Assembly (NCBI GenBank): GCA_038087875.1
Contig: CM075989.1
Span: forward strand, 9,054,001-9,118,000
Length of the DNA stretch: 64,000 nt
Source: Malacoraja senta
Lineage: Eukaryota
Direction: 5' to 3'
In this document: positions 12,601 to 64,000 of the stretch, piece after piece
Layout of the letters: every line of letters starts with the position of its first letter
Position numbering within the stretch: position 1 is the first letter of the stretch
Made by a program: the position numbers and the translations under genes
Notes under the pieces: generated by a model
Databases searched by the model: none
What the model saw: the letters and a program-made list of their open reading frames with translations, nothing else
Told to the model about the DNA's origin: nothing

Positions 12601-14767
12601 GACAATGTCTTTGGCAAGAACATGGATAATATTGTGGAGATAGTTTGTTTTTTAAATCAGTTCAGTTTAGTTTATTGTCACGTGTACCGAGGTACACGGC
12701 AAAGCTTTTGTTGCGTGCTAACCAGTCAGCAGAAAGACAACACATGATTGCAATCGAGCCATTTACAGTGTATGGATACATGATAAGGGAATAACGTTTA
12801 GTGCAAGGTAAAGCCAGCAAAGTCCGATCAAGGATAGTCCGAGGGTCATCAAAGAGGTAGATAATAGCTCAGCACTGTTCTCTGGTTGTGGTAGGATGAT
12901 TCAGTTGCCTGATAACAGCTGGGAAGAAACTGTGTCTCTTAATGTGCTTCCTTCATTCAATAGTTCAACGGTTCTTTATTATCACGTACCAATATACAGT
13001 GAAAATTCTGTTTTTGCATACAGATCAGTGATTATTGCCAAGCATAAATACAATCCCCGATTAAATACAGAATATACAGAAACATCCCACTGAGTCCATA
13101 TACAAGAGTCACCAGGTTTTGGTGCCATTTTCAAAATCCAAGCTGCAGCCGGCCATAGAGGCCCATTGCAGCCGTCGCTTCCATTTGGATTGTCCAGCGA
13201 ACCTCCGTCCCTCTCCCCGCCCGGCCACCTTCAGCCTTCATGCAGCCGACCTCGATGGCGTAGAATATCAGACCCCCGGTTCTGCTTAACGGCCTTTTGT
13301 TTTGTAGCGTCCGCCACCATCGCCGACTGTCGTCCGTACGGTTAGAAACCGCGCCGGTTCCCGATCCTCGGGGATGAGCAGGTTCGGGGGCTTCCCTCTC
13401 CGGGTGGGGATCCAGTTCTGCGGTGGGCAAGCCAGGCTGGCTGCCGGGGTACATCCACGACCCAGGGCTAGCAGCAAGCTTTCACCACACGCAGCCCGTC
13501 GGGAGCTTGCATGGTACAGGAATAGTAAATACAATTAATGTCATTAACAGTTCAAAGAAGAACTTGAAGTATGTCAGATATATAATGCAGAAACAGGCCG
13601 TTTAGCCTAATTAGTCTGCATCTGTACATAAGTGCCACACACGCTTTGTGTTCACATATTTTCACTACAGATCATGTCCCAAAATAGCTGAACGTTCAGC
13701 AGTGGTTTTGTTGCATTCCTGGCATTATTATGTAATTGGCTTTACTTTCAAGTGACCAGACTTTGAAGAAAGGCTAAGAGAGAAAACCTTAAATCAGTTC
13801 TAAAGTAAATGAGTTTGAGACCCTGTCTTGCAGGTGGGCTGATGTTATCAGCTAAGGCCCAAGCCTGAGTGGGACCCAGAGGTTAATCTCACCACATGCA
13901 CTTCACATGAACACAAACAGCTTGGACTTATGTCGTACATTCTATGCAATAAAACATTCCAAAACACTTCACAGGAAAGCTTATAAAACAGAAATATAGA
14001 TTGAGACCGTCGGAAATATTCGCAGTGATGGCAGAAATCTTGGCTAAAGGGGTATGTCTTAAGAATGTGGCAAAGCAGAAGTGATGCAGAGAGGCCGATG
14101 GGTTTAACTGGAGGACAGATGGATAGAAGGTTGTAGGGCTGGAGGCCGTGCATTAATGATGGCTGGACACCATCATTACAAATGGACAGGGACCAATTCA
14201 GAGGATTTACAAACGAGGATGTTACCCGGAGCGCACGTGGTCTAACACCATTAGGCAACATCCTGTACAGATCGTATGGAAAGACTTCCAATGTCCACAA
14301 TCTAAATTAGCGAGGAAAATATCCCAAGACCTAGAAATCGAAGGAGATTCATTTTCTTGTATCGTAGAACAGTAGAGCGCAGGAACGGGCCAGTCAGCCC
14401 ACAAGGTTCGTGCTAAACATGATGCCAAGTTAAACTGATCTCATCTGCCTGTACATGATCCATATCACTCTATTCCCAGCACTATTGTATCTGCCTCCAC
14501 TACCACCCCTGGCAATGCCTTCCAGGCCTCCAGTACTCTCTGTATAAACAAATCTTGCCCCGCACATCTCCATGAATCTATCCATCTCTCACTGTAGAGC
14601 AATGCCTTCAAGGATTAGACATTTCCACCTTGGGGGAAACACGATCCGACACTCTACCTTATCTATTGCCTCTCATTATCGATGGAGTCTTAGTAGAAGA
14701 AGGAATATTGAGGAAGGGAAACACAAAGTGCCGAATGGAGAAAGAAGCAAATGCAGTTAGTTTTGAT

Positions 14768-14990
14768 TCAGATATTGAAACACAAAGTGCTGGAGCAACT
14801 CAACAGGTCAGGCAGCATCCCTGGAGAAAAGGAACAGGTGATGTTTCGGGTTGGAACCCTTCTTCAGACAGGCCCGACCTGAAACATAACCTGTTCCTTT
14901 TCTCCAAAGATGCTGCCCGACCCATTGGGTTACTCCAGCACTTTGTGTCTATCTTCCGTTTAAACCAGCATCTGCAATTCCTTTCTTCAC
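14768..14990. mobile_element. Inverted (hairpin) Penelope-terminus element
   Basis: Two inverted terminal modules flanked by tagttttgat at 14758-14767 and 14991-15000. Confidence 0.75.
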
Positions 14991-15024
14991 TAGTTTTGAT
15001 CATTCAGCTCTCGCCATCAACTGA

Positions 15025-18056: not shown

Positions 18057-18069
18057 TTAATGTCTACTA

Positions 18070-18300
18070 TTGTCTGGGAAGGAGCTGTAGATGCTGGTTT
18101 ACACCGAAGATAGACGCAAAAAGCTGGAGTAACTCAGCTGGTCAGGCAGAATCTCTGGAGAAAAGGAATAGGTGAGGTTTCGGGTCGAGACCCTTCTTCT
18201 TCCAGTCTGAAGAAGGGTCTCGAGCCGAAACGTCATCTATTCCTTCTCTCCAGAGATGCTGCCTGACCCGCTGAGTTACTCCAGCTTTTTGTGTCTATCT
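18070..18300. mobile_element. Inverted (hairpin) Penelope-terminus element
   Basis: ~95-bp inverted arms; direct repeat ttaatgtctacta at 18057-18069 and 18301-18313. Confidence 0.85.
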
Positions 18301-19044
18301 TTAATGTCTACTAATGTGTGGCTGTAGTTCAAAAAATGACTTGATTTGTTGTCAAGCCCTCCAAGATGCCCTACTGATGTGGACATCAAGATGTCCCACT
18401 GATGTGGACAAATGCAATAGAAATAGAGAACCCTCTTCTAGAGGAGCACAAGAGTTAAAAAACCTGAAACCCAACGTGTGGCTTCCTCATCAGACAGTAG
18501 CCAGATGAGGTGATGACTGGTAATGGCTGAAGTTCGAACCTTCCTTCCTGAGTTCAGAGAGTCTCACATGATTAGGCCAATGAGTAGTGTTGGGGTTTGC
18601 TGCCAAGACTCAAGTGAAGGCTTGCTTCAACCAGACTGTTATTGTTTTAAATACAGACGAACAATGGCGATGAGATTAATGCAATTTAATGCTGGTCACC
18701 CCCCTCCCCCCTCCATTATAGCGCCAGGCTCACAGCCAGGATACTGACAATGTGATCTCTCTGGAGTTTGGTCGTTTAATTCAAGATTTCATTTGTTTTT
18801 CTACTTCTTCACTTGCTCGAGAGATTCCAGTCAGGGAATATATCTGAAACATTATTTTTTTCCCCCAATTTTTAAAAATTATTTCTCAATATGAAAATAT
18901 GTTTGTTGCCTTTTCTTCTGCTAATCTAAACAGTCTAGCCTTTTACAGAAGGAGCAATCCCTGTGGAACAATGGCAAGAACCTATTCCAGCTCTCTTCAA
19001 AAATAGGGCGTTGATGACGTTAAGAATGGGGCAGAGGATGTAAG

Positions 19045-19332: not shown

Positions 19333-21662
19333 GATGTAAGTACTCTCGTCATCTGGCACACTGTTCAAACAAGTTTACTTCTGGTCGAAATAAACTGAAT
19401 TAAAATTCTGCTTGAATGAAAACATTATGAATAATGCAATCAAGTGAACTTAATTTCACCCCCTCAAGGAACAGGAAGTGGCCAAAATAATATCCTTATG
19501 TGTCTCTTGGGCCTCTAGCATTGCATCCTTTCTCGTGTTATGAAGCCATTTTGACTAAAGGTCCCATGTCTTTATCCTCAACTTGGCTGGGACCAGTTCA
19601 AGGAAGTAGAATGACTTGGTAATCCTATGTTATCCCCTCACAACTTGTGGACCAGGTTCTGCTCTGATGCTCCCATTGTTGAATAACCAAGCCACAGTAC
19701 GTTCATTGTAACACTGGGGCAGATACAAAATGCTGGTGTTACTCAGCGGGTCAGGCAGCATCTCTGGAGAAAAAGAATAGGTGACGTTTCGGGTCGGAAC
19801 CCTTCTTCTGACACGCCATCTTGAATCAAATGATACACGAGCACAACAGGTAGCACAAAGAGAAAAATACCAGAGTACAGCAAACAGTGTTAGAGCATTT
19901 TAGCGCTCAAGTTACAGTGCAGAAAGTGCAGATTTAAAAAAGTGCAAGGGCTGCAATGAAGTGGGTTGGGAGACCAGGCTGAAATCCTTAGCTCATGAGA
20001 GGTATATTCAGTAGTGTGACCTCAGTGGGGAAGAAACCTCTAACTGAGCCACGGTGTCAACTCCTGCCCTGACCTGACACAGCTCGGATGGATCGAAGCA
20101 AACCATTCTGCCGCCCACGATATCCTCATCTGGCTGTCAACCTTGTACGTGTAGTGTTAACTCGTAGATTTTTTGCTCCCAGCCTGTGTCTTATTTGCGG
20201 AGTTTTGCTTGATCTTAACATCATTGAGCGCTCCCATAAATAAACGCTCTACAACGAAGAGCAGGTTTACTCGACAACAGTGATGCATTCAGGGCTCAAC
20301 TGGAAGTCTTGTGCTTCGTTCTGGATTTTCCTCGCAAAACCTTCCCAATTTCCTACCACTTTTTCCTCTGGTGAGAATGAGATGCACCTTTTTAGTACTG
20401 GCCAAGGTTTTGACGACCAGCTCTGACGGCCCCTGAATCATATTTTGTTTGTAACGCTCACCATTAAAGGGAAGTACAACCCGTGCGAATTATTGTTGCA
20501 GCATTTCAGCGTGGGCGTGCACACTGCTTGCCTTGCCTTTCAGTTCACAGAAAATGCTGGGAACACTCAGCAGGTCAGGCAGCCTCTGTGGAGCAAGAAA
20601 CAGTTAATATTTCAGCTAAAAAACCCTTCCTCAGAAACAGAGATTTTATTTTTCTCTTTCCGAGTTCTGTTGGTGTTGGGCCTCTCTTCCCCTCTCCACA
20701 ATTGTTGCCTGAGCTACTGAGTGCTTCCAGCATTTTCTCTTTTTGTTTCCGATTTCTGCAAACTGCAGTTTGTCTCATTTTCGTTTGCTTCCCAACTCCT
20801 CTGCCTTCTCGCGATCCCAATGGAATCTGCAGCCCAGCCGCCTTTGCCCCGAACTCCCTCGCAACCCACCAATTCCGCACCCCAGTCCTGCAAGGAACAC
20901 CGTGCCAACGGTACAAGAAAGAATTTGAGAGAGGGAACCTCCCCCCCCCCCCCTGGACATCTTGGCCCAGGGTCTCCTGACTTGTGGAAGCCCAATTGTA
21001 AATGTCAGTCAAGATTGGGGTTTAACATTGGGCCTACTTCTTGGCAGCGTTAGCTCTGCTCAGAACTTGCCAAAGCTTATCATTCATTAAATCTGATCCT
21101 TTTGGATCTCAACGGCGAACTGCAGTCAGCAGCATACTTTACATTCTGCTGCGGTGTTGCCTCTCTGACGACCCCTGTGCTGAGCAGTAAGCATTGTTGC
21201 CAGTAACCATCCCCTGGCCTGCTTCGTTGTTTGAGACACCAGTGTATGTTTTCAAACCTACAGTAGCTGCTCTTTGTTTAGCATTATTTGAGGCTGCTGC
21301 AGTTAGTTTTGCCAGCTGCTCCGTGGGTCTGCTGCCAACTAGCTGATCGGCGACCCGAAGCATTTGTCGCTACCACTAAGTTTTTAAATAGACGTGGCTT
21401 GGGTTGATCCTTGCCCGCCACCTCCCTGCCACCCCGTCGCTGGGATGTCACGCCTTCTCCAGCCACGTAGCACGGGCTCCTTCATTCCTAATTCTATTCA
21501 GCCACGGCCTGCAAAGGTTGTGGGATTCTGAGCTGCGGGTACAATCCACACACACAAACATCGGCCTACAAACGCAGTGCACGCAACAAAATAAGGCTCT
21601 ATTTTCCACAGCACATTTCATGACCTTTGGATATATTGCAACTTTGTTTGCAGCTGGTCACT

Positions 21663-22134: not shown

Positions 22135-22440
22135 ACAAAAGGAACTGCATATCCTGGATTCTTGACCAAAGCACAAGGCGCTGGAGGAACTCAGCGGGAC
22201 AGGCAGCATCTGTGGAGGGAATAGATGGCTGACGATTCAGGACCTTTCTTCAGACTTGGGAAAGAGTTTGGGATACGTTTGGCACAAGGACTGTTCAATG
22301 TAATCAACAAAAAGGGAGGCACAGCTGGAGCCCATTCGAGTGCCCATGGCTACAGCTTTGACTTGAAGAAAGTGAGAGGAGTCACAAAAGATGTTATTGA
22401 TGGGATGGTGAGAACAAGTTCCATCAGCGGGAGGAGAGAC
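22135..22440 (-). mobile_element. Penelope-like fragment with RT remnant
   Basis: ORF 22237-22470 contains FLQVKAVAMGTRMGSSCASLFVDYIE, resembling the PLE RT motif QxxGxAMG, joined to a terminal module. Confidence 0.7.
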
Positions 22441-24537: not shown

Positions 24538-25514
24538 TTTAAAAAAACGTTGAAACGGACTAAATACGCCTATTTAGTTAGCTTTTAATTTAGAAATCAA
24601 GGTGAAAGATCAAAGCCCATAACCCAGGACATCAGCAAGGCTTAAAGAGGCACGTTAAATTGGAAACTACTGCTTTAGCTGCTGTCACAACGATCCCAAT
24701 GACCAGATCGTGCCACATCAGCCTGAGATTTTGTTGCTCATAATTCACTTGAGGCAATGTGAGGCCAGGAATGGGGTCAGGCTGGGAATGTAAAACATGA
24801 GGCTTAAACAAAAAAACATAAAGTGCTGCAGTAACTCACTGGGTCAGACTGCAGACCAGGGATAGACGGCGTGTTGTGTCGGGACACTTCTTCAACTATC
24901 GTGGGGGGGGGGGGGGGGGGGGGGGATTGGCAGGGGAGACATCTGGAAGTGAAGAGATGCTGTCTGACCCGCTGAGTTACTTTGTGTCTTTTCATGTTAA
25001 CCGGCATCTGCAGTTCCTTGTTTTCGACATGTGGCTTCACTTTGTTGGGAAAATTGTTTGTTCTTGAAAGACTTTGAGGTTAATTTTCCTTTTGTGAGTG
25101 CACTGTTTAATCCATCAGTGGCATTTACATGGTATGCTTTTTAACCCAGCCGATTTAGATTCTTGTATAGCAACAATGTGGAAAGTCTCTACCGACCACC
25201 TCTCGTGCTACCACGCACTTGTTTTCTAATGATGTTTTGCACGAATGCCTTGTTTTTGCACAGTCTTTCTATTCACTGTCTTCTGGAATATAGGTGTCAT
25301 TTATGTTTCTGTGCGTTAGCTGAGTCTACGCGCTGTGATGCTGCTGCATACACGTTTTTTTATCGTGCCTGTACCTCACCATACCTGTGCTCATGGCAAT
25401 ACACTCGACATGACTTGACTTGAACTGACCCAAGGTGAACTTCCCTGACAAAAGTTTCATTGTAATCTTCCTCTCCAGAAGCTCGTTGGAGATACTGAGT
25501 CACTGTGTGGTTTC

Positions 25515-26060
25515 TTGACAGTTGCCAAACACTTTAACCCCCCTTCCCATTCCCACACTGACCTTTCAGGCCTGGGCCTCCCCCACTGTCAGAGTGAGCC
25601 AAACGCAAATTGGAGGAACGGCACCTCATATCTAGCTTGGTCAGCTTACACCCCAGTGGTATGTATATTGATTTCGCTAACTTCAAGTAACCCTTGCATC
25701 CCCTCTCTCTCCACCCCTCCCCACCCTAGTCATCGTACTAGTTTCACTGTCATCCTGTTGAGTTTCACTGCCTGCATAACTCATTATCTCCTAGCACACA
25801 GCCAACAATGGACCATTGTGGGCTCCACCCTTCCTTGATCATCATTATTTTTTGCATATCTCTCATTCATTTGTTCTATACTTCTCTATTTCACTATCTA
25901 TTTCTCTCGTTTCCCTTTCCCCGGACTCAGTCTGAAGAAGGATCTCAGCCCGAAATGTCACCTATTCCTTTACTCCAGAGATGCTGCCTGACCCGCTGAG
26001 TTAATCCAGCTTTTTGTGTCTACTTTCAGTTTAAACCAGCATCTGCAGTTTCTTCCCACA
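25515..26060 (+). mobile_element. Penelope-like element 3' part (GIY-YIG C-terminus and terminal module)
   Basis: VAKHFNPPSHSHTDLSGLGL..., then cagtctgaagaagg..gaaatgtcacc..cagcatctgcagtt. Confidence 0.8.
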
Positions 26061-26479
26061 CAATAACATTGTGGGTTTGCTTCACCAATCTCCTTGATTT
26101 TATTTCTATTGGTTCTCGATCACAATATCTTACACTCGAGGCCAAAGTCTACCCCCTTAACCCTTCAACACTCTGCAGAGGGTTCAATCTCGGGAAGTCA
26201 TCTGCCCATTTCCCTTGGTCAGTCTGAAGAAGCGCATCGGCCCGAAACGTCACCCATTGCTTCTCTCCAGAGATGCTGCCTGTCCTGCTGAGTTACTCCA
26301 GCATTTTGTGTCTATCTTTGCCCATGTCCCTTCACAGGTGCTGCCTGTCCCGTTGTGTTCCTCCAGCACTTTGTTCTTTGCTCAAGATTCAATCATCTGC
26401 AATTCCTCATGACCACTCCCTTATCTACGCTCCTGATTCTTCCAACCTTGTTCAGCAAACTTTTGGATTGTTTTCTCTG

Positions 26480-27775: not shown

Positions 27776-28688
27776 CACTCATTTCTGTTTAACAACTGTG
27801 TCCTTTCACTGTGCACTCTGTGCGAGTGAACTCTTCCCTTGGATATCGAAAGAAGATTTCTCTCAGTGTGTAATTGCTGCCAATTTGTATCTGATTTGTG
27901 TTCCCGATAAGGAAGTCTCAGGCACGGAAGAGTTGCCAAGACCGATGAGCAACCCCTTTCTATTTACTTGTTGCATTCTTTCTGCTACTATCTATTCCCC
28001 AGTTCTCAGACAATCATGTGTTAAAGAAGGAACTGCAGATGCTGGAAAATCGAAGGTACACAAAAATGCTGGAGAAACTCAGCGGGTGCAGCAGCATCTA
28101 TGGAGCGAAGGAAATAGGTAACGTTTCGGGCCGAAACCCTTCTTCAGACAATCATACTGTTATGAGAAAACAGCAATAAGAGCCTTATCAAAACATTTCC
28201 ACCAGTAGTGTACATAAAATCTGAACCAGTTGTGTTTTACGTTAGGGTAGAAACCCAACCAGCACTGTATGTGTACTGCACTGTTCGAACACAATGGAAA
28301 ACAGATCAAGTTGTTCTACAATTTACTGCTGTTTTGAAGACTTGCTGTGTGCAAAATAGTTGCCCTCATAACAAGCAGTGTATGTGAATGTCTTGCCTTG
28401 TTTCTGTGAGATGTGATGAGGCTTGGTGGAGCAAAACATGAGGCAGTGTCAGGAGGCTAGTAACCAGGGAAGAGACAAGAGACTGCAGATGCTGGAAACC
28501 TGAGTAAAAGAGCAAAGTGTTGGAGGAACTCAATGGACCAGGAATCTGTGGAGGGACACAAAAATGCTGGAGAAACTCAGCGGGTGGAGCAGCATCTATG
28601 GAGCGAAGGAAATAGGCAACGCTTCGGGCCGAAACCCTTACTCTGCCTACAAAGATCCTGACCCAAAATGGACCCGGTCTGTCTATAA

Positions 28689-29154
28689 AGGGCCTGTCCC
28701 ACTTGGCCGTCATTTGCGCCTCATTTACGCGTCATATGTAAAATAGGTCGACGCGTCGTGACGTGTGGGGTGCGCATGGGTAACGCACACAATGCGCAGG
28801 ATGAGGCATGGAATCGCATGCGGTGGCGCGCGGTTCCACGGGTGCTCCAAGATTTCTTAGTGTAACGAAATCCTCGCGCGCCACCTGTGTGACGTATCGC
28901 GTATGCATGCTGACGCATTGGCGTCACACACTGGCGTCCCGACGTCTCACGTGTATCGCTCGGTGACGCACGGTTACGTCACCGTGCGTCAAAGTCCGTA
29001 ACCATGCGTCGCCGCGCGCCGCAGGGTATTCTAATGACATCACACGCACCAGATGGCTGTGCTGACGCGTGATTTGCGCACGACGTCGCGTATCACGACG
29101 CTTTGACCTATTTTACATATGAGGCGCAAATGACAGCCAAGTGGGACAGGCCCT
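28689..29154. mobile_element. PIF/Harbinger-like MITE with CpG-rich body
   Basis: ~37-bp TIRs agggcctgtcccacttggccgtcatttgcgcctcat; flanked by taa/tta; inserted inside a Penelope terminal module. Confidence 0.8.
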
Positions 29155-31554
29155 TTACCCTCCACAGATGCTGCCTGACCCTTCAAGTTTCTCCGCTGGT
29201 TTAAGATTTATAATTATGATTATTTTATGGTTATGAGATAAAGCAAAAAACTTGCAAGTTATTATAATCCAGAACACACTGCCTTAACGGTATTGGAAAC
29301 AGATTCAATAGTAATTCTCAGTTTTCCTTGTCAGCAAAAATATCAATTAAAAATTAAGCTATTTAACAACAATTTTTCTCAATCAATATTTACCCAACGT
29401 GTAGGATGCTGGTTGATACCAAAGATAGACATAAGGTGCTGGAGAAACTCAATGGGTCAGGCAGCATCTCTGAAGAAAAAGGATGGGTGATGTCTCGTGT
29501 CGGGTCCCTTCTTCATATATCCAATGTTAGGGTCACTTTAACTTGCAATATAATAAATCAGCTCCAAGTTTAAATAAATAAATGATCAAATTAATTCACT
29601 TGCATTATCCTTTAGCTAAACATAATTAATATACATATCTGTCAATGTTGGCGGAAAAACTCAATATTGACATAAAGATTTTTAAAAGGTGTCGGTACAC
29701 CATACAGCCACGCACCATCACAAAAAAAGCACTCATCATTCTTAAGAAAGAAATTGTTAAGTAGTTGTCTGTGTTTACATGGAAAGGCCAGGGGATTGCT
29801 CTTTACAGAGAAGCGCCACAGCACAAGGAGCAGAACGACGCCCCTTCCTTCCTGTTGTGTGATTCACGCACGGGGAAGGTAGGAACTCAACCATCACACC
29901 GCCAGTGGTATTGGTAGAAGTGAGATGTGGGCCAGTGCTAATTCCAGACGATTGTTGCCCTCACATCTCACTATCTGTCAGTCACTGCACCTTTGTCGGC
30001 TCGACTCATTGGGATCATATGAAACAACGGCACGTTGCTCCCAGCAATAATTACAGTCGTAATAATCCTAATTACAGTCAGGATTGGAAAGCCAAACCAT
30101 CTCCAGTAGCTGAGCCACAATTCTACAGCGTTATCCAAAATAACCAGTGTCCGGGATACAGTAGCTATGAGAGAATCCCTTTAATCAAAGCGGTCTGTTT
30201 CTTTCCAGGGATTTTCTGGTCCACGCTTTGGATCAATGTCGGCTTTCAGTCCTGTGATCCTTAACATTAAGGTTCACATCAAATCCCTCCCTGTATCTGC
30301 AACCTGCCCCAGCCCTGAAATCCTTGGAAATATAGAGCATAGAACAGAATAGTGCAGCAAAAACAGACCCTTTGGATTCACAATGTCTGTACAGAACATG
30401 ATACTAAGACCAACTCTCATCTACCTGCACATAATCTATATCCCTCCATTCCCTGCATCAATCCAATATGCATGTCTTCAGCTCGAAGGGCCAAATGGCC
30501 TACTCCTGCACCTATTTTCTATGTTTCTATCTGTGCTTCTCCAGTTCTGGCCACTCTCGCAAGTCTTGTTTTATCCACTCCAAATTTTGTTTTTATAACA
30601 GAATTATAACAGAATCCCTAAGCTTTAGAATCTATTCCCTGTGGGAAAGGCAAGAATGTCACAAACATATACCAACAGTAACAGCTTTGATGACTGCCAT
30701 GATAAAGGATGACATTGTGGCTCAGTTCTTCTTATCGAGTCCACATCACAAGATTACAAATTGTTCAGCCAGAGCTTCTTGGCATCTTGCGCTTCTTGTG
30801 CTTCTTGTCCGTGGTGGTGGAAAGATTGGTGGAAACAGGGCCGCGACATGAACGCTCTTTCCTTGACCCCGTGGCTTAGTTGATAGAGTTACTGCCTCTC
30901 AGCACCAGATATCCTGGTTGAATCCTGACCTCTGGTTCTGTCCATGTGGAGTTTGCATATTCTTTCTGTGCCCGTACAGATTTCCTCCTCCATCCGAAAG
31001 CCATCACTTGTTGCAATAGATGATGGTGGTAGCAGAATTAGCTCGGGAAACTTCCAGTTCCCAGCCCCGCTTCTGCTATGTGCCTCCTCATCTTGCCTGT
31101 AACGGGGGGCGACTAGACCTGCACACAATACTCTAAATGCAGTCTAACTAAAGTCCTATAAAGCTACAACATGACTTCCTGACTCTTATACTCATTTCTC
31201 GTACCTATGAAGGCAAACATATTATATGTCCTCTTTACTAGTTGATCTACTTGTGTTGCCATTCAGGGAGCTATAGACTTGGACTATAAAATACCCCTAT
31301 ACAACAAAGCTGCTAAGGGTTTAGCCATTAACTGTATACTTAACATTCAACCTCCTAAAGTGCAACACCTCACGCCAGCTTGGTTTAAACTCCATCTGCT
31401 ATTTGCCTGCCCATATCTATAACTGATCTATATCCTGCTGAATCCTTTGATAGCCTTCTTCACTATCCAAACATCCACCAATATTGGTGTCCCAGTCATT
31501 TATATATATCACAAACATCAGAGTTCCCAGCATCAGAACCCTGCAGAACACCAC

Positions 31555-31862
31555 TGGGCCTGTCCCACTGTACGAGGTAATTCAAGAGCTCTCCTGAGTT
31601 TTAAAAAAAAATCAAACTCGTGGTAAGTACGTAGAATGTACGTAGCGGCTACGTCGGAGCTCGTGGATGTCTCGTAGCGGCTCGTAATGCTAACGGCAGG
31701 TACTCGGGAAACGCGGTGACTCGTGAAGTTTTTTCAGCACTGTGAAAAATGTCCACGAAAGCCCCGAGTACCTACGAATGGCTATAACCGTAATTCTCCA
31801 AGTTAGAATCGGGGGAAACTCGGGAGAACTCTTGAATTACCTCGTACAGTGAGACAGGCCCT
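31555..31862. mobile_element. PIF/Harbinger-like MITE
   Basis: TIRs gggcctgtcccactgtacgaggtaattcaagag / ctcttgaattacctcgtacagtgagacaggccct; interior related to 59858-60227. Confidence 0.8.
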
Positions 31863-33914: not shown

Positions 33915-35085
33915 GTTAGGCTATGTCTGAATGGTAATCGTTGACTACAACTCAGCTGACAACTCCATAATTCTCAATAAGGTCATCTCTAAACTCCTGG
34001 ACCTTGACCTTGGGTCCTCCATCTGTAACTGGCTTCAGGACTTCACGACTGGTAGAACTCAGTCGGTTACAATGGGTCAGAACATTCCCTCCAGGCTGAC
34101 CTTCAACACTGGTGCTCCTCAGGGTTGGGTGCTCAGTCCCCCGCTCTACCCCCTGTGTGGCCAACTAGAGTGCCAACCCTGTCGTTAGATTCACTGATGT
34201 TGCCACTGTTGTCAGCTGGATCAACAATGATGAAACAGAGTACAGGAAAGAGATCGGGAACCTTGTATCGAGCTGTCAAAACAACCTAGCCCTTAACATC
34301 AGCAAGACAAAAGATTTGGTTGTTGATTAGGAAACAAGGGGGTGAACACCTCATCAATGGAGCTGCTGTAGAGATGTTGACAAGTTCAACTTGCTTGGCA
34401 TCCTTACCACCAGCAACCTAATCTAGTCCTTTCACACTGATGCTGAAATCAAAAAAAGCACCCAATCATTCTGACTTTCTTGTGTATTTACTTTCTTAGG
34501 CGACTGAGAAGATTAGGCAGGGTTATGAGGATGCTCGCAAACCTCTACAGATGTGCTATATAAGGTACTAAGTGCTGGAGTAACTCATTGGGTCAGGCAG
34601 CATCCCTGGAGAACATTGATGGCCGCTGCTTTGGGTCGGTACCCTTCTTCATTCTGAAAGGGGTCTCAACCCAAAATGTCACCTATCCATGTTCTCCAGG
34701 GAAACTGCCCGACCTGCTGAGTGACTCCAGCACTTTGTGTTCTTTTGTGCATTAGCCAGCATCTGCAGTTCTTTGTTTCTGCTACAGAAGGTATTTCAAC
34801 AAGGTGCAGCTCAGCTTGATAAAGCAACTGCTCTGCTCTTTGGCTGCCAGAACCTGCAGAGAGTGGTGAACACAGCCCATTCCATCACAAGCTCGGCGCT
34901 TCCTCCCATCCAGTCCATCTTCACGGTGTGTTGCATCAGGAAGGCTGGATGTGTCGTCAGGGATTCCTGCCACCCTGGTCATTCCCTTTTCTTTCTTCTA
35001 CCTTTCGGAAGAAGATACAGGAGCTTGAAAGTGTGGGTTCCAGACTTAAGAACAGTTTCTTCCCCACTGCTATATGAATCCTGAA
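33915..35085 (+). mobile_element. Rex1/Babar-like LINE RT fragment (degenerate), interrupted by a hairpin element at 34568-34779
   Basis: VDYNSA..CNWLQDFTTGRTQSV..NTGAPQGWVLSP; later LQRVVNTA..HPGHSLFFLLPFGRRYRSL. Confidence 0.85.
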
Positions 35086-38403: not shown

Positions 38404-38738
38404 GGGGTATCTTGGTCAGCATGAACGAGTTGGGCTGAAGGGCCTGTTTATGTGCTGTATGACTCTATGACTCTCTGCTGGACTAACTCAGCAGATCAGG
38501 CAGTATTTGTGGAGGAAATGGATAGGTGACGTTTCGGCCTGTCCATTCCCCCCCACCCGCTCTTTTCCTGCCTGACCCAAGTTCTTCTTGCTCAGGATTC
38601 TAGCACCTGTAGTTCCTTGTTTCTCCACCAGGACAGTACGAACAGATTGGGTCAACGGCCTGTTTACGTGGTGCATGTTGACCACAGCTCTGTGTGAGAT
38701 CTGATGATCTACCTGTATTCTCTCCTGCTGTGTCTCAG

Positions 38739-38848: not shown

Positions 38849-39341
38849 GTATTGTATGTGTCATCATGTCAGGGGGGGGGTTATTTCACAAAGGGGGGGG
38901 GGGCCGATTGGGGTTGAGAAAAGAAAATCCCTCATCCTCACCTGATTCTGTATCACTGAGTTGTAGCAACAACTGATCGCTAGGAGTGGGCCGGTAAGAG
39001 GGTGAACTGGGGTAACGCCTCCAGCAGGAGGCGCCCCCGGGACATAAGGATGGCGAGGAGAGGAGAGGAGAGGGATGTCAGTTTGAGGGAACTGCTCCAG
39101 TACGTCGAGCATGCGGGACGATCCCGCACTTTGGACTTTTAATGATGGCGCCAAAATTGCAACGCCTGCATGTGTAATATAGAAGCATGGAAACATAGAA
39201 AATAGGTGTGGGTGGGCCATTTGGCCCTTCGAGCCAGCACCGCCATTCAATATGATCATGGCTGATCATCCAAAATCAGTACCCCGTTCCTGCTTTCTCC
39301 CCATATCCCTTGATTCCCTCAGCCCGAAGTGCTGAATCTAA

Positions 39342-39793
39342 AGAGCCTGTCCCACTTTCACGACCTAATTAGACAATAGACAATAGGTGCAGGAGTAGGC
39401 CATTCGGCCCTTCGAGCCAGCACCGCCATTCAATGTGCTCATGGCTGATCATCCCCAATCAGTACCCCCGTTCCTGCCTTCTCCCCATATCCCCTGACTC
39501 CGCAATTTTTAAGAGCCCTATGAAAGCATCCAGAGAACCGGCCTCCACCGCCCTCTGAGGCAGAGAATTCCACAGACTCATGATTCACGACCTTTTTTAC
39601 TCGTGGACATTTTTCATCAGGCTAGAAAAACGCCCCGACCTAGTTGATGCCACGAGTACCTACGACTAGCATCACGACCTGCTACGACCTACCTATGACC
39701 TACTACAACCTTGTGACAACCATGCTGCGAGTATGAGTCAAGGGCAAACTCGGCAGAGGTCGTGAATTAGGTTGTGAAAGTGGGACAGGCCCT
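39342..39793. mobile_element. PIF/Harbinger-like MITE carrying a nested CR1 tail (39371-39580), itself inside a CR1 tail
   Basis: TIRs agagcctgtcccactttcacgacctaatt / aattaggttgtgaaagtgggacaggccct; TAA TSD; removing it restores the host atctaactctct. Confidence 0.85.
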
Positions 39794-40427
39794 TAACTCT
39801 CTCGATTGAAAACGATATAAGCAAAAGGAATTTCTCTGTGCAATTGCACGTGACAAGTGAAGCATCATGGAGTCACTGAAGGAAAGTGAACATTAATTCA
39901 TAGGAATTACTGATTCGAGGCGGCCTCTTAACTGGAGTGTTAATGTTTATATCAATCTTATTGTTATTCATTCACAGGCGAGGAATATTGAAACTGAGTG
40001 GTTTGCTGGACTACTGTATTTTCAAGTGCAGATCAGAGCTAATGACACTGCTGAATGTTTCAAGTTATGCACAGGCTAGACTCTAAATACACCAGACTTC
40101 CTCCCCTGAAGCTAATGGGGATTTTACTGTAATTCAATAGTTTCTTAGTCACTGTTACCAACATCAGTCTCTCAATCCCAGAATGTATTTATTTTAATTT
40201 AAATTCCAAGGCTGATGTACTGGGATTTAACTTCCACCATCGGATCATTGATCCAACTCTCTAGATTGCTAACTTCTTAACCAGGCTACTGTACCAGGAG
40301 GGACCTAGTGTAAATGGCAGGATATTAATACGTCTGAAAAAACCTCGATCCCCTTTTCTGTACTGTCCGTCTGGGCCACAGAGGAGCTAGAAGTCTGACC
40401 GCAACTTCTGTGCAGCTGCTATACCTG

Positions 40428-40651
40428 TATGAAGGAACTGGAGATGCTTTAAACTGAAGATAGACACAAAAATCTGGAGTAACTCAGCAGGCCAGACAGC
40501 ATCTCTGGAGAAAAGGAATAGATGGCATTTCGGGTCGAGACTTCTTCATGACCTGAAGGAGTGCGAAGAAGGGTTTCGGCCCGAAACGTCACCGATTCCT
40601 TCTCTCCACAGATGCAGTCTCTGAGTTACTGCAGCTTTTTGTGTCTATCTT
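40428..40651. mobile_element. Inverted (hairpin) Penelope-terminus element
   Basis: Inverted arms; degenerate 15-bp TSD (12/15) cagctgctatacctg / cagctgttaaacttg. Confidence 0.7.
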
Positions 40652-40909
40652 CAGCTGTTAAACTTGACTCAGTGCAGCCTTCCACCATTGAACAGCCTTC
40701 CTATAGTGCCGACCCAGCAATGAGCAAAGGTCACTTCATAGATGTGAACTTTGTAACGCAACCCATCACATTTGCCGCACTAATATTAAACTTCAGGAGG
40801 CCACTTCTCTTAGCTATCTACATTCTTTTGAAATATGATGAGGTTTTCCACCATTAGATACTTCAAGCACCGAGATCCAATTGTCATCTTTTCTCAACTC
40901 CGGTCTAAT

Positions 40910-47362: not shown

Positions 47363-48546
47363 CAAGAAAGAACTGCAGATGCTGGAAAAATCAAAAGTTG
47401 GAGAAACTCAGCGGGTGAGGCAGCATCTATGGAGCGAAGGAATAGGTGATGTTTCGGGTTGAGACCCTTCTTCAGACTGGGGTGGTGGGGAGGTGGGAAG
47501 AAATAAGTAAGTAAGAGGCGGAGACAGTAGGCTGTGGGAGAGCTGGGAAGGGGAGGGGTAGGAGGGAGAAGGGGAGGAGACAGTGAGGACTATCTGAAAT
47601 TGGAGAAGTCAATGTTCATACCGCTGGGGTGTAAACTACCCAAGCGAAATATGAGGTGCTGCTCCTCCAATTTGCGGTGGGCCTCACTCTGGACATGGAG
47701 GAGGCCCAGGACAGAAAGGTCGGATTTGGAATGGGAGGGGGTGTTGAAGTGCTGAGCCATCGGGAGATCAGGTTGGTTAATGCGAACTGAGCGGAGGTGT
47801 TGGGCGAAGCGATCGCCAAGCCTACGCTTGGTCTCACCGATGTAGAGCAGCTGACACCTAGAGCAGCGGATGCGATAGGTGAGGTTGGAGGAGTTGCAGG
47901 TGAACCTGGAAAGACTGCTTAGGTCCTTGAATGGAGTTGAGGGGGGAGGTAAAGCAACAAGTGTAGCATTTCCTCCGGTTGCAAAGGAAAGTACCAGGGG
48001 AGGGGGTGGTTTGGGTGGGAAGGGACGAATGGACCAAGGAATTACGGAGGGAGGGTTCTTTGCGCAAAGCAGAAAGGGGAGGAGATGGGAAGATGTGGCC
48101 AGTCGTGGGATCCCGTTGGAGGTGGCGAAAATGTTGGAGGATTTTTGGTTGTATGTGAAGGCTGGTAGGGTGGAAGGTGAGGACAAGGGGGACTCTGTCC
48201 TTGTTATGAGTGGGGGGATGGGGAGTGAGAGCGGAGCTATGTGGTATAGAAGAGACCCTGGTGGGAGCCTCATCTATAGTCAAAGAGGGAAACCCTCGTT
48301 CCCTAAAGAATGAGGACATCTCCGATGCCCTGGTGTGGAACACCTCATCCTGGGTGCAGATGCGGTGGAGACAGAGGAATTGGGAGTAGGGTATGGGAGT
48401 CCTTACAGGAAGCAGGGTGGGCAGAAGTGTAGTCTAGATAGCCATGGGAGTCAGTGGGTCTGTAGTAGATGTCGGTCAGTAGTCTGTTACCCGCGATGGA
48501 GATAGTGAGATCTAGAAACGGTAGGGAGATGTCGGAAATGGTCCAG
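47363..48546 (-). mobile_element. Penelope-like retroelement, Neptune type, 5'-truncated and frameshifted (RT end/thumb, Cys linker, GIY-YIG endonuclease, terminal module)
   Basis: LPFLDLTI..IYYRPTDSHGYLDYTSAHP; linker CNRRKCYTC; NLTYRIRCSRCQLLYIGETKRRLGDRFAQH..KLEEQHLIFRLGSLHPSGMN. Confidence 0.9.
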
Positions 48547-53015: not shown

Positions 53016-54567
53016 GATTGTGCCCCCTGCTCTCGCTCTCCAGCAGATGGTGAGAAGTCAATGGCAGAGACCATGTCTGGTGAACAGCTCCCAGGACCAC
53101 ATAGTCCTTCCATTGTACTTGCTGTTGTGTTGTCTACTACTTAAAACACAATCCATTGCAATCTGTCCCCATTGAATGTGTGCAGGTAAACCTCTCTGCT
53201 CCGAGAACATGAGATTACAAAGCAACACGCTTCTAAAGGTGTTTAACATTCCAACCAACTGATCTTAGTTGAGAAGCCCTTAAAATTGTTAGCAAGCCTG
53301 GAATGTGAATGCTTCGGCTTTCTCCCACGTCCCACTGTAATTTACCCACAGAATGTAAGTCAGTGGGAGAATCTGTGGGAAATTGATGGGAATGTGGGGA
53401 GAATAAAAACTAGGATGGTTGTAGGTGGCGGCTTGGTGGTTGGCACAGATCAGTGGGCTGAGGACCATTTCCATGCTGTATGACCCCACGACTTTCCTTC
53501 CTACTCAGTGCAGCCTCACCCAAACTCTAACACTAACTATCATTCGTTCAACAACACATAATCACATAAGCTTCCGTCCGACTCTTCCTGAAGATTGGAC
53601 ACATGGAAAGGAACAACAGATATGACAAATTACATTAAGAACACATCATTTTAGCAACATCATGTTCCTAACGAGTTGCCAAATACTCAGTTAACTAATT
53701 AAAACATGGGTGATCGATGGCCGGTGTGGACTCGGTGGTGTGAAGGGCCTGTTTCTATGCTGCATCTTCAATCAATCAATCATGGTGAGCTGAAGATAGA
53801 CACAAAATGCTGGAGTAACTCAGCGGGACAGGCAGCATCTCTGGAGGGAAGGAATGGGTGATTTTTCGGATCGAGACCCTTCTTCAGACAGAGGGGGAGA
53901 TACAGAGATAGGGAAGTGTGCTGATTTTCACCAGCCCAGCCCCTCATCCCCAGGCACTGCCCTCTGTAACCCAGGGGAACTCAACACAGTTCAAGAGGTC
54001 CAACGACGATCTTTCTGCGGGATTCGGCCACTGAATGGGCCCATTGTCCCTGGTGAAAGAACAGCAAACGTTGGTGGAAAGTAAACCTGCCTGGATCTGT
54101 GCTTTCCTTTGCAATTCCGTGGTGGTGAGAGTGGTGACTTTACTACACAAATCCTGACCACAGGATTGCAAACTCAAACCAAAGCACACTGCAAGCAGTT
54201 TCATTATTGCTAATCTTGCAGATTCTTTGGTGATCTCATAATCATTGGTCATAATGACTGGTTTGAGAGTCCTGTCTTATAATTTACCCATTTATTCTGC
54301 ATGTCCTATCTTCAAATATAAATAATACTGTTACATTTACACTTTCTCCGAGCTGCTTGTGTATTCATGGGAATCATAAGACCAAGACCATATTGATCCA
54401 TGTGCATCTTAATCTTCTGGATCAGTCTACCTTGGGAATCTTTATCAAATGCCTTATTAAAATCCATGTAGACAGCATCCACCACACGACCGTCATCCAT
54501 TATCTTCGTCTGCTCAAAAAGACTCGATCAAGTTAGCAAGACCTGACCTGCATTGTACAAAGCCATG

Positions 54568-54810
54568 TGTAGGAAGGAACTGCAGATGCTGGTTTAAATC
54601 GAAGATAGACACAACATGCCGGAGTAACTCAGCGGGACAGGCAGCATCTCTGGAGAGGCAGAATGGGTGACGTTTCAGGTCGAGACCTTTCTTCAGACTG
54701 ACACGAGTACCTTCAGACTGAAGAAGGGTCTCGACCTGAAACGTCACCCATTCCTTCTCTCCAGTGATGCTGCCTGTCCCGCTGAGTTACTCCAGCATTT
54801 TGTATCTATC
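54568..54810. mobile_element. Inverted (hairpin) Penelope-terminus element with exact 15-bp TSD
   Basis: ttgtacaaagccatg at 54553-54567 and 54811-54825; inserted in an older CR1 RT fragment. Confidence 0.9.
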
Positions 54811-54931
54811 TTGTACAAAGCCATGCTGGCTATTCCTAATTAACCCATTCTCTTCCAAATAGTAGTAACTCTTATCCTGAAGAATCCTCACTGATGTGAG
54901 GCTCACTGGCCAATGATTCCCTGGACTCTCT

Positions 54932-59205: not shown

Positions 59206-59857
59206 CTCGGTGTGGTTCCACACCCATGTGGCTTGGAGTTAACAAGGTGCAACCACGGAGACACACCAAAGAATCAAAGGCCCAGAACTGTTGACTTGCA
59301 TGTTTGACAAAACCATGGGTTTGTGGGCTGTGTTGAGAAAGACTTCATAAGTCATTGGAGCCGAATTAGGTCATTCGGCCCATCGAGTCGACTCCGTCAT
59401 TCAATCATGGCTGACCAACTTTCCCTCTCAAGCCCATTCTCCCGCCTTTTCCCAGTCATCTTTGACGCCCTTACTAATCAAGAATCTGTCAATCTCCGCT
59501 TTAAAAATACTCATTGGCTTCCACAGCCATCTGTGGCAATGAATTCCACAGATTCACCACCCTCTGACGAAATAAGTTCCTCCTAGTCTCCTTTCTAAAG
59601 GTACATCCTTTTATTCGGAGGCTAGGCACTCCCACTAGTGGAAACATCCTCTCCACCTCCACTCTATCCAGGCCTTTCACTGTTCGGTAAGTTTTAATGA
59701 GTCCTTGGGAGACTTGGAGATTTGCTGCATTACATCTGGAAGATGGTGGACAGAGTGTCCATTATGCACTGGGAATGGATGGAGGGAGTTTTCTTTAACC
59801 TTGCTCGATGATGGGTAGGTATTTCTTTCCCATTTCAATGTCCTTCACCAAGAGTTA

Positions 59858-60227
59858 AGGGCCTGTCCCACTTTTCCGAGTTATTCACAAATTCTCCCGA
59901 GTTTTCCCCTTGATTCAAACATGCAGAATGTTCGTAACGAGTCCGTAGGAGGCCGTAGGAGTCCGTGGATATATCGTAGCGGCTCGTTATGCCAGCCGTA
60001 GGTACTCGGGGCATCAGGTAAGTCGGGACGTTTTTTCCAGCCTGATCAAAAATGTCCACGAGTAAAAAAGTAGCCTGGAGTATCTAAGGCTGGTATAACA
60101 AGCCACTACGATATATCCACGGACTCCTACGGCCTCCTACGGACTCGTTGCGAACATTCTGCGAGTTTGAATCAAGGGGAAAACTCGGGAGAATTCGTGA
60201 ATAACTCGGGAAAGTGGAACAGGCCCT
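59858..60227. mobile_element. PIF/Harbinger-like MITE with ~125-bp TIRs
   Basis: agggcctgtcccact...agtggaacaggccct; TTA on both sides (59855-59857, 60228-60230). Confidence 0.88.
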
Positions 60228-60310
60228 TTACAAAGAAGATATGCATTTATTGAGTCGGAATTGTAACTGGGCACTGAATAGTGACTAACATTTTCTTTTT
60301 TTAATATCAG

Positions 60311-62412: not shown

Positions 62413-63429
62413 TGCAACTACACTTTCCTATGCACCTCAGTTTAAATGACTGCCCTCGGACCTTGTAGATATGCCCTCGCATTCACGATTGTCCCACTAG
62501 TGGAAGTGTCTCAGCATTTACCCAGTCGTGCCCCCTGAGGATCTACAACTTTTAAAACTAAGATCACACTTCATTCTTCAAATATACCCTTGGAGCTGGA
62601 GCCAAGATTTTCTCTGAAGGTTCCTAGAGATGAGACTCCTTTTGCTTCAGAGGTAAGAGTGATGTCCATTGAACCACGTCCCTGCAAACCGGCATCCCTC
62701 TCCTCTCCTCCTTGTGTCCCAGGCGTGCCTCCTGCAGCTGACCTTGAAGGTTCTGGAGGCACTACCCCGGGTTCATCCCACCGAACCTTTCTCCTGGCAT
62801 ACTACATCTCCGGCGGTCGTCCCACCTGCCCGGTACTGTGGTCGCCGAGCCTGCAGGTCCTCCGGGCGAGTTCCCGGTTCCGCCGTCCGACGAGCCCTCG
62901 TTCGGGCGGAGACCGCAGCCGCGGCACCTCAGGGGGGCAACGGCCGCGCGACACTGTGGGCCAGGGTGTGACTCAGGCACTGTACAATGCTTGGCTTGGT
63001 AGCTCAACATGTGCTGCAAGACTCGCACTCCCTTCATTACACTCTCTTGCCTGGTGATGTTCATCCCTGGCCTGCGATCAACTCTGATCTCCAGGGTTGG
63101 CTGCAACGGAGAAATGTTGACTCACACACTCACTCTTGGCAACTTCGCTGCCCAAATCACTGCAACCACAGCAATTAAGATGGACAGCTATATGGAAAAC
63201 AAACCTCTGACGATTTAAAATATATTTATGGTTTTATAATACTCTACTGGTGGGCAATTACACTGTCAACATGGTTATGTAATATGGTTTTAAATCCCAC
63301 AGGAGACTCACCCTTCCAGCTGCCTCTGCTATTCTGTTATCACATTTTACACCTTCTGACCTACCTTTGGTTTCTCTACTTGCCTCATTATCACCTCTTT
63401 TTGTCTTGGCCCATTATATCCATCACAGG

Positions 63430-63941
63430 CATACAGAGGGTTCACCTGAATCTCCTCCAACCTCATCTATTGCATCCGCTGCTCTAGATGCCAGCTGATC
63501 TACATCGGTGAGACCAAGCGGAGGCTTGGCGATCGTTTCGCCGAACACCTCCGGTTGGTCCGCAATAACCAACCTGACCTCCCGGTGGCTCAGCACTTCA
63601 ACTCCCCCTCCCATTCCGTATCTGACCTCTCTGTCCTGGGTCTCCTCCATGGCCACAGCGAGCAACACCGTAAATTGGAGGAAATGCACCTCATATTCCG
63701 CTTAGGCAGTCTACATCCTGGGGGCTTGAACATTGAATTCTCCCAATTCTGCTAGCCCTTGCTGTCCCCTCCCCTTCATCAGCCATCTGGTTGTCTCCTC
63801 CCCTCCCCCAGCCCTCGGGCTCCTCCTCCGCATTTTTCCTTTTTTCCTTTCTTCTCCCCCCCCCTATCAGTCTGAAGAAGGGTTTCGGCCCGAAACGTTA
63901 CCCATTTCCTTCGCTCCCTGAGTTTCTCCAGCATTTTTGTG
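63430..63941 (+). mobile_element. Penelope-like element 3' part with 15-bp TSD
   Basis: NLIYCIRCSRCQLIYIGETKRRLGDRFAEH..GLNIEFSQF; TSD tatatccatcacagg at 63415-63429 and 63942-63956. Confidence 0.9.
63870..63902 (+). ncRNA. Minimal hammerhead-ribozyme-like core in a Penelope terminal module (representative copy)
   Basis: CUGAAGA-A-GGGU(UUCG)GCCC-GAAA-CGUUA; the same core recurs in about a dozen copies on both strands. Confidence 0.55.
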
Positions 63942-64000
63942 TATATCCATCACAGGGCTCTCCTGACCCTCCAGAACCACTTTTTTTCCATTCATTTTTC

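What the first reader, a model, noticed from the sequence alone, without database searches (positions are those of the whole stretch)
54553..54825. TSD-flanked ~220-bp hairpin elements made of two inverted Penelope termini: candidate non-coding mobile family
Seen: at least five insertions (14768-14990, 18070-18300, 34568-34779, 40428-40651, 54568-54810) contain only two inverted copies of the Penelope terminal module and no coding sequence. Each is flanked by a different direct repeat: 10 bp exact, 13 bp exact, 12/14, 12/15 and 15 bp exact respectively. Two interrupt recognisable LINEs whose sequence resumes afterwards. Known: PLEs often insert with an inverted partial pseudo-LTR. Inference: each hairpin is one insertion event, either an extreme truncation product or a non-autonomous, ribozyme-bearing MITE-like retroelement mobilised by the Neptune RT/GIY-YIG protein seen at 47363-48546.
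Basis: partly seen in the sequence, partly recalled or inferred. Interest (0 to 1): 0.72.

Follow-up and report, generated by a model that had tools for sequence, protein, structure and literature searches.

The report
Back-to-back Penelope retrotransposon end insertions
These are real, very short insertions made of two back-to-back copies of the end of a Penelope retrotransposon, most likely formed anew each time the element jumps rather than a separate self-copying family, which makes them a useful record of how this poorly understood element inserts.

Summary
Observation confirmed. All five ~220-bp hairpins are present, each flanked by its own 10-15-bp target-site duplication, and two interrupt LINE reading frames that close up when the insert is removed. 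Each is two head-to-head copies of the ~100-nt 3' terminus (pLTR, minimal hammerhead motif) of a Neptune-type Penelope element; exactly one arm carries the ~35-40-nt 'tail'. That is the published Penelope end structure (inverted pLTR, tail on one side, palindrome at the junction, TSD) with no ORF between. Evidence favours formation anew at each insertion: all five junctions sit at one palindromic site but differ; the two arms of a hairpin share subfamily letters, and these letters also occur in solo and UTR/ORF-bearing copies; solo and linear copies have the same TSD size and often the same 5' start. Likeliest mechanism: both target nicks prime reverse transcription, at the element's two start sites, and the two short cDNAs meet at the palindrome. 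A self-copying hairpin family is not excluded (about 12%): no genome was held and the contig test of junctions was overloaded. The broken ORF at 47363-48546 is another subfamily and is not the mobiliser. New variant of a known kind; moderate interest.

The parts
54553..54567 (.). left target-site duplication (15 bp)
   Evidence: 15/15 identical to 54811-54825
54568..54701 (-). long arm: Penelope 3' terminus with ~35-nt tail (tail about 54568-54601)
   Evidence: starts 4 nt upstream of the palindrome centre
54667..54698 (-). minimal hammerhead-like motif in the long arm
   Evidence: core motifs present; stem II pairs in 92% of cells over 16 copies, not above shuffles; cleavage untested
54702..54712 (.). 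11-nt central spacer, unique to this copy
54713..54810 (+). short arm: same terminus without tail (last TT shared with the TSD)
   Evidence: 91% to long arm
54716..54747 (+). minimal hammerhead-like motif in the short arm
54811..54825 (.). right target-site duplication
54330..54885 (-). decayed CR1-type LINE RT fragment interrupted by the hairpin
   Evidence: frame continuous across the empty site, with a frameshift about 30 nt further on; family name from recalled motifs
14758..15000 (.). hairpin 14768-14990 with 10-bp TSD; tail on right arm; right arm lacks its first ~15 nt
18057..18313 (.). hairpin 18070-18300 with 13-bp TSD; tail on left arm; 3-nt gap at centre
34554..34793 (.). hairpin 34568-34779 with 12/14 TSD inside a Rex1-type LINE; tail on right arm; arms overlap at the palindrome
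40413..40666 (.). hairpin 40428-40651 with 12/15 TSD; tail on left arm
24795..25037 (.). sixth, decayed hairpin 24806-25026 with 10/11 TSD and a poly-G centre; tail on right arm
20546..20780 (.). older head-to-head pair, tail on right arm, no clear TSD
38476..38625 (.). degenerate head-to-head pair with central loss
25480..26063 (+). 5'-truncated Penelope copy (GIY-YIG end, pyrimidine-rich UTR, terminus with tail): the kind of parent the arms of 18070 and 40428 derive from
47363..48546 (-). 5'-truncated, frameshifted Neptune-type ORF fragment of a different terminal subfamily
26205..26332 (+). solo short arm starting at the same site as hairpin arms, 13/14 TSD
63415..63956 (+). linear 5'-truncated EN-bearing copy with 15/15 TSD and no inverted arm

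Best explanation
Each hairpin is the smallest form of a normal Penelope (Neptune-type) insertion, built anew at each event. Shown: a staggered cut 10-15 bp wide was made and filled by two head-to-head copies of one subfamily's terminus, one ending at the short end and one at the tail end, both starting at about the same palindromic site. Inferred: the element's RT-endonuclease nicks both strands; one nick primes cDNA at the distal start site (arm with tail, ~135 nt), the other at the proximal site (~100 nt); both cDNAs stop at a fixed point (an RNA 5' end or a stall at the pyrimidine-tract/CAG boundary), and their 3' ends, self-complementary at the TCAG-T-CTGA palindrome, are annealed or end-joined with small gaps and fillers; repair gives a perfect inverted repeat with a TSD that then decays. 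The template may be a full element transcript or a short terminus RNA acting in trans; these data do not separate the two.
For: One tail in 5 of 5 hairpins, on either side, the published PLE signature (PMC8557442 passages). A purified lizard PLE protein cuts and extends both strands and starts at two sites whose spacing is the tail (PMC11167929). 9 of 10 arms start within -8 to +3 nt of the palindrome centre, yet the five junctions differ: gaps +5, +3, -12, +2, +11. The two arms of one element share 3.4 non-majority letters on average against 0.55-0.9 between elements; 2 of 120 pairings reach the observed sum; 16 of 17 shared letters also occur in other copies, 15 of them in solo or UTR-bearing copies. 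Solo and linear copies have TSDs of the same size (13/14 at 26218, 15/15 at 63867) and several solos start at the same site. Arm identity and TSD identity fall together, as expected if arms began identical. No strand-biased A>G excess that would point to an edited double-stranded RNA template: 9 A>G, 12 T>C (low power).
Against: Only five clean elements were analysed and old copies can gain junction indels after insertion, so differing junctions do not exclude masters. Two to three junctions (18070, 34568, 54568) can be read as one overlap junction plus small later changes. None of the UTR- or ORF-bearing copies in the window has an inverted arm next to its 5' end in the profile scan, so no continuum from long to short inverted insertions was seen. 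Only 3 of 17 non-hairpin copies show a TSD-like match near their 5' start, plus one far match. The in vitro work is on a Poseidon-clade element, not Neptune. The contig test gave no junction census. What fixes the 5' start is not shown.
Confidence: 0.58

Rival explanations
1. Fold-back self-priming: one cDNA is primed at the target, runs to the palindrome, snaps back and copies itself, giving the second arm.
For: Palindromes at inverted PLE junctions were read as self-priming in PMC3846280. It explains same-subfamily arms and junctions at the palindrome.
Against: It does not by itself explain why the second arm ends at the same short end that solo and linear copies use, which matches a second priming site. 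Spacers of 2-11 nt in four of five junctions are not clean snap-backs.
Confidence: 0.15
2. Master hairpin elements: a non-autonomous, ribozyme-bearing, MITE-like retroposon transcribed and copied as a whole, with one or more masters per subfamily.
For: Uniform size (212-243 bp), 16 of 41 module pieces sit in head-to-head pairs, junctions cluster at one site, and the terminus is 16-30 times deeper than the deepest upstream bin in contigs of 4 of 4 runs (depth is not a copy number, and other subfamilies add to it). Non-autonomous PLE derivatives exist (retrozyme preprint; PMC8557442).
Against: No long-arm or short-arm lineage: long-long 0.7 and short-short 0.9 shared letters against 3.4 within elements. 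At least three subfamily letter sets each make hairpins and also non-hairpin copies. No two junctions are identical. Such an RNA would be a ~95-bp duplex (-174 kcal/mol) that buries the ribozyme and priming sites (inference).
Confidence: 0.12
3. Collapse after insertion: a full insertion (inverted pLTR, pLTR, ORF, pLTR with tail) lost its middle by recombination between the two direct pLTRs, like a solo LTR.
For: The canonical structure Pen2a_Av (inverted pLTR overlapping the direct one, tail on one side, 9-bp TSD) would collapse into exactly this product.
Against: No uncollapsed parent is seen in the window against 8 head-to-head pairs; the direct repeats offer only ~100 bp of homology (inference).
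Confidence: 0.1
4. Chance neighbours, or a DNA-transposon MITE with terminal inverted repeats.
For: Module density is high (41 pieces in 64 kb) and the elements look like MITEs on a dot plot.
Against: 8 head-to-head pairs against a mean of 1.0 by chance; one TSD spans both arms; TSD length varies 10-15 bp and ends are unequal, unlike cut-and-paste elements (established knowledge); arms are the 3' end of GIY-YIG-coding copies.
Confidence: 0.02

Closest known systems
Canonical EN+ Penelope-like insertions with an inverted pLTR (Pen2a_Av in PMC3846280; scheme in PMC8557442)
   Same: Head-to-head inverted pLTR, junction at or near a palindrome, 30-40-bp tail at one end only, TSD of about 8-10 bp around the whole unit.
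   Different: Here nothing lies between the arms: no ORF and no second direct pLTR; the form is frequent (8 pairs in 64 kb); TSD 10-15 bp.
PAc (Poseidon of Anolis carolinensis) in vitro mechanism, PMC11167929
   Same: Two RT start sites spaced by the tail, both strands cut and extended, hammerhead in the terminus.
   Different: Different PLE clade; the read parts of that paper do not describe pLTR-only hairpin insertions; second-strand steps were left open there.
Minimal hammerheads of metazoan PLEs, PMC4209133
   Same: Core motifs, extra base before stem II, palindromic helix III; the paper notes pairs of motifs 100-700 bp apart on opposite strands in Schistosoma and many lone motifs taken as truncated PLEs.
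   Different: Here the two motifs are under 60 bp apart in one TSD-flanked insert; helix I is only 2 bp; activity untested.
Non-LTR retrozymes (bioRxiv 10.64898/2026.07.22.740005)
   Same: Short, non-coding, hammerhead-bearing, PLE-derived.
   Different: Retrozymes are defined there as head-to-tail tandem repeats with their monomers; these are head-to-head pairs with a tail.
L1 twin priming (PMC2837659, listing only; mechanism recalled)
   Same: Second nick primes a second cDNA, giving an inverted insert within one TSD.
   Different: L1 arms are consecutive parts of one RNA; here both arms copy the same ~100 nt.

Membership tests
EN+ Penelope-like element (source of the arms) | terminus lies 3' of an ORF ending in GIY-YIG endonuclease | tested here: met
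   four EN-coding pieces each end in the module: 25480, 47363, 61275, 63400
EN+ Penelope-like element (source of the arms) | [quoted passage not shown] | tested here: met
   5 of 5 hairpins
EN+ Penelope-like element (source of the arms) | variable-length TSD | tested here: met
   10-15 bp
EN+ Penelope-like element (source of the arms) | minimal hammerhead motif in the pLTR | tested here: inconclusive
   full core pattern in 5 of 25 copies, 3 of the 10 arms; 91.7% of cells paired but 77 of 500 shuffles reach this; no Rfam hammerhead hit at E<=1; cleavage untested
Neptune/Nematis clade | [quoted passage not shown] | tested here: met
   present in 47363-48546; not visible in the shorter copies nearest to the hairpin arms
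Neptune/Nematis clade | RT phylogeny | not tested
   only RT fragments in the window
Non-LTR retrozyme | head-to-tail tandem units each with a hammerhead | tested here: not met
   arrangement is head-to-head; no module array found by TRF
Non-LTR retrozyme | circular or self-cleaved RNA | not tested
MITE (class II) | equal terminal inverted repeats and a fixed short TSD | tested here: not met
   unequal ends, TSD 10-15 bp
Self-propagating non-autonomous hairpin family | junction and arm-specific letters shared by descent across loci | tested here: inconclusive
   not seen among 5 copies; genome-wide test not achieved
Self-propagating non-autonomous hairpin family | orthologous empty sites | not tested
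   the one read-laying run went to the parent copy; LINE frame continuity stands in for two loci

The most novel reading that the evidence does not exclude
The hairpins are a self-propagating class I element with MITE-like shape: a ~220-nt double-stranded RNA with two opposed hammerheads, copied whole by Penelope protein, re-founded in several subfamilies and very abundant in this lineage.
Probability: 0.12. Interest if true: 0.75.

Novelty: new variant of a known kind. Interest (0 to 1): 0.42.

Why it matters
How Penelope elements make their inverted ends and one-sided tail is an open question (PMC8557442 passages; PMC11167929 leaves the later steps unvalidated). If these hairpins are the minimal product of two priming events, a genome carrying one every ~8 kb, as this window does, holds a large natural record of that step: TSD widths, start-site use and junction chemistry can be read off directly. 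They are also ready-made ~95-bp hairpins that would form double-stranded RNA when transcribed, and they can be mis-annotated as MITEs or miRNA precursors (Rfam gave sub-threshold miRNA hits on two of them). They are not shown to be a new mobile family.

Tried and rejected
No whole genome is held for the window, so the genome-wide census could not be run. Pattern scans: a module pattern found 0 loci in viral contigs and 0 in metagenome contigs; junction patterns found 1 locus each in metagenome, viral and genome contigs; L001 is a short hairpin after a bacterial-type gene and none of the loci in the files scored with the module profile at E<=10: chance. Contigs of 4 of 24 listed runs were laid on 25420-26200 at 80% likeness: 142,000-167,000 contigs per run; the tool dropped counts, showed 15 of 937 joints, and only one shown joint (25930-25974, 2 contigs in each of 2 runs) is near the hairpin centre; loose-end consensuses agree only 0.4-0.5, and the loose ends at 26010-26022 are confounded by mismatches of the reference copy at 26023-26024. 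Inconclusive for junction sharing. Rfam: no hammerhead family hit. Folding single arms did not give the hammerhead fold, as expected for motifs said to need a dimer or protein. The arm tree is mostly unresolved (13 of 22 forks open). A-to-I test negative with low power. Earlier scan findings: 3 look-ups, all empty. Literature: 9 searches returned no paper whose listing or read parts describe ORF-less head-to-head pLTR insertions as a class; Repbase, Dfam, subscription journals and supplements were not seen and may already hold such entries. PMC12602865 held none of four terms. The inverted repeat at 59854-60231 is an unrelated family.

Full report
Setting. The window is repeat-rich eukaryotic DNA (46% G+C, no N). 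Its LINE and SINE pieces resemble those of cartilaginous fishes; that is my recall and no call names the host. No whole genome is held, so the analysis rests on the window, one contig-laying call and the literature.

Observation. The five elements are at the stated coordinates with the stated flanking repeats. The repeats are more than chance: scores 15, 13, 10, 8 and 6 against at most 4 in 20 cross-pairings, and shares of 0, 0, 0.001, 0.003 and 0.023 among 3000 random position pairs (the 40428 case is the weakest). The 54568 element folds as a ~95-bp hairpin, z -21. A profile made from 25 window copies finds 41 module pieces and none in the reversed window; among 13 neighbouring pairs within 150 nt, 8 are head-to-head, 4 tandem and 1 tail-to-tail; random placement gives 1.0 head-to-head pairs on average and never more than 6 in 20,000 trials. 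Taking out the insert and one duplication makes a continuous RT-like frame at 54568 and at 34568; I call these CR1-type and Rex1-type from recalled motifs. So each hairpin is one insertion.

What the arms are. The module is the 3' terminus of Penelope-like elements: four pieces coding for the end of a GIY-YIG endonuclease run through a pyrimidine-rich UTR into it (25480+, 47363-, 61275-, 63400+). The longest has the CX4CxxC linker that PMC8557442 gives for Neptune and Nematis (passages). The module begins with a 9-nt near-palindrome (TCAG-T-CTGA), whose right half is the start of a minimal-hammerhead-like core with the extra base before stem II and a palindromic helix III described in PMC4209133 (parts 1-2 of 4). 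The full core pattern survives in 5 of 25 copies; stem pairs hold in 91.7% of cells, far above slid controls (2-48%) but not above shuffles (77 of 500); Rfam has no hit. Ribozyme activity is therefore likely for the parent and unproven here. The module ends at one of two places about 35-40 nt apart. Every one of the five hairpins has one long and one short arm, the tail on the left in three and on the right in two; the three decayed pairs agree by eye.

Comparison with the published structure. PMC3846280 (passages and Discussion) describes the typical insertion as ORF between two pLTRs plus an inverted pLTR that overlaps the direct one by 15 bp, a 31-bp tail at one end and a 9-bp TSD, and notes palindromes at inverted junctions. 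PMC8557442 (passages) and PMC8969392 (passages) give the same picture. PMC11167929 (parts 1-2 of 4) shows that a purified PLE protein cuts and extends both target strands, is predicted to be a dimer, and starts reverse transcription inside the RNA at two sites whose spacing is the tail. PMC9977147 (passages) reports new PLE insertions of median length 128 bp. PMC4209133 mentions motif pairs 100-700 bp apart on opposite strands. The hairpins are this known end structure with nothing between the arms.

Formed anew or copied from masters? Measured against a UTR-bearing window copy, 9 of 10 arms start within -8 to +3 nt of the palindrome centre and one at +15; the five junctions are all different (gap +5, +3, overlap 12, gap +2, +11). 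Over 80 non-CpG core columns the two arms of one element share on average 3.4 non-majority letters, against 0.7 for long-long, 0.9 for short-short and 0.55 for long-short pairs across elements; 2 of 120 pairings reach the observed sum; 16 of the 17 shared letters recur in other copies, 15 of them in solo or UTR-bearing ones. So hairpins arise from several subfamilies, both arms from the same one, and no left-arm or right-arm lineage shows. Non-hairpin copies carry the marks of the same machinery: a solo short arm with a 13/14 TSD that starts at the palindrome (26218), a linear EN-bearing copy with a 15/15 TSD (63867), a solo joined by microhomology at the same site (28023); most of the 17 examined show no clear TSD. 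Against my reading: the sample is five; several junctions could be one overlap junction altered later; and no long copy in the window has an inverted arm. The fixed start needs a cause. All 7 UTR-bearing copies have 23-26 pyrimidines in 27 nt before it and 5 of 7 have CAG there, so the site looks like a splice acceptor and also like an initiator (recalled consensus); in Drosophila virilis Penelope the intron end maps to the hammerhead's helix I and the promoter is internal (PMC2377424 passages). An RNA end, a stall, or annealing at the palindrome would each pin the junction, so shared junctions alone would not prove masters.

Outside the window. Contigs of 4 of 24 listed runs, four coded organisms, were laid on the parent-type copy 25420-26200. 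Summed depth over the module core is 16-30 times the deepest upstream bin and 40-60 times the median. The tool warns that this is no copy number, and other subfamilies match the module but not the UTR; it says only that terminus-only sequence is very common in all four. The joint table was overloaded and gives no junction census. Pattern scans of microbial and viral collections gave nothing relevant. No orthologous empty site was tested.

The supposed mobiliser. The copy at 47363-48546 is truncated and frameshifted and its terminus groups with 61275, 28023 and 28555 apart from all hairpin arms. It shows that Neptune-type elements were active here, not that this copy or subfamily made these hairpins.

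Verdict. Real and non-random; a new variant of a known kind. Most likely the minimal outcome of Penelope insertion with two priming events (0.58); rivals are fold-back self-priming (0.15), master hairpin elements (0.12) and collapse of full insertions (0.10). Nine literature searches did not turn up a description of this ORF-less form as a class; of the retrozyme preprint I saw part 1 of 5 and passages; Repbase, Dfam and supplements were not seen and may bear on novelty. Interest 0.42: ordinary parts, but an abundant and testable record of an unresolved step.

Noticed in passing
window 28686-29157, 31556-31861, 39341-39794, 59854-60231: A separate family of inverted-repeat elements with a shared ~13-15-bp terminal motif and mostly TA/TTA-rich ends, MITE-like; the 59854 copy has 159-nt arms at 91%; the 28686 copy splits a Penelope module.
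   Followed up: partly
window 22136-22460 (-): A Penelope RT fragment is joined directly to the start of the terminal module, skipping the rest of the ORF and UTR: a template jump or deletion at the same site as the hairpin junctions.
   Followed up: partly
window 26190-26410 and 28476-29195: Younger Penelope termini inserted inside older ones (26218 with a 13/14 TSD; 28555), suggesting a taste for own termini as targets.
   Followed up: partly
window 11715-11811: Inverted piece of the module core abutting a tail-only piece, no TSD: possibly a hairpin that lost most of its centre.
   Followed up: partly
window 30819-30882 (-): Weak match to the CPEB3 (HDV-like) ribozyme model, 26.4 bits, E 0.009, below the gathering score of 35; could be a LINE 5' ribozyme or chance.
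   Followed up: no
window 54810-54812, 18300-18301, 40651-40654, 63942-63946: At the short (tail-less) end the first 1-5 bases of the TSD also fit the module's continuation, as if the target end paired briefly with the RNA at priming.
   Followed up: no
window 24902-24926: A run of about 24 G in the centre of the sixth hairpin, matching the C-rich UTR end of some subfamilies read in reverse, or an assembly artefact.
   Followed up: no
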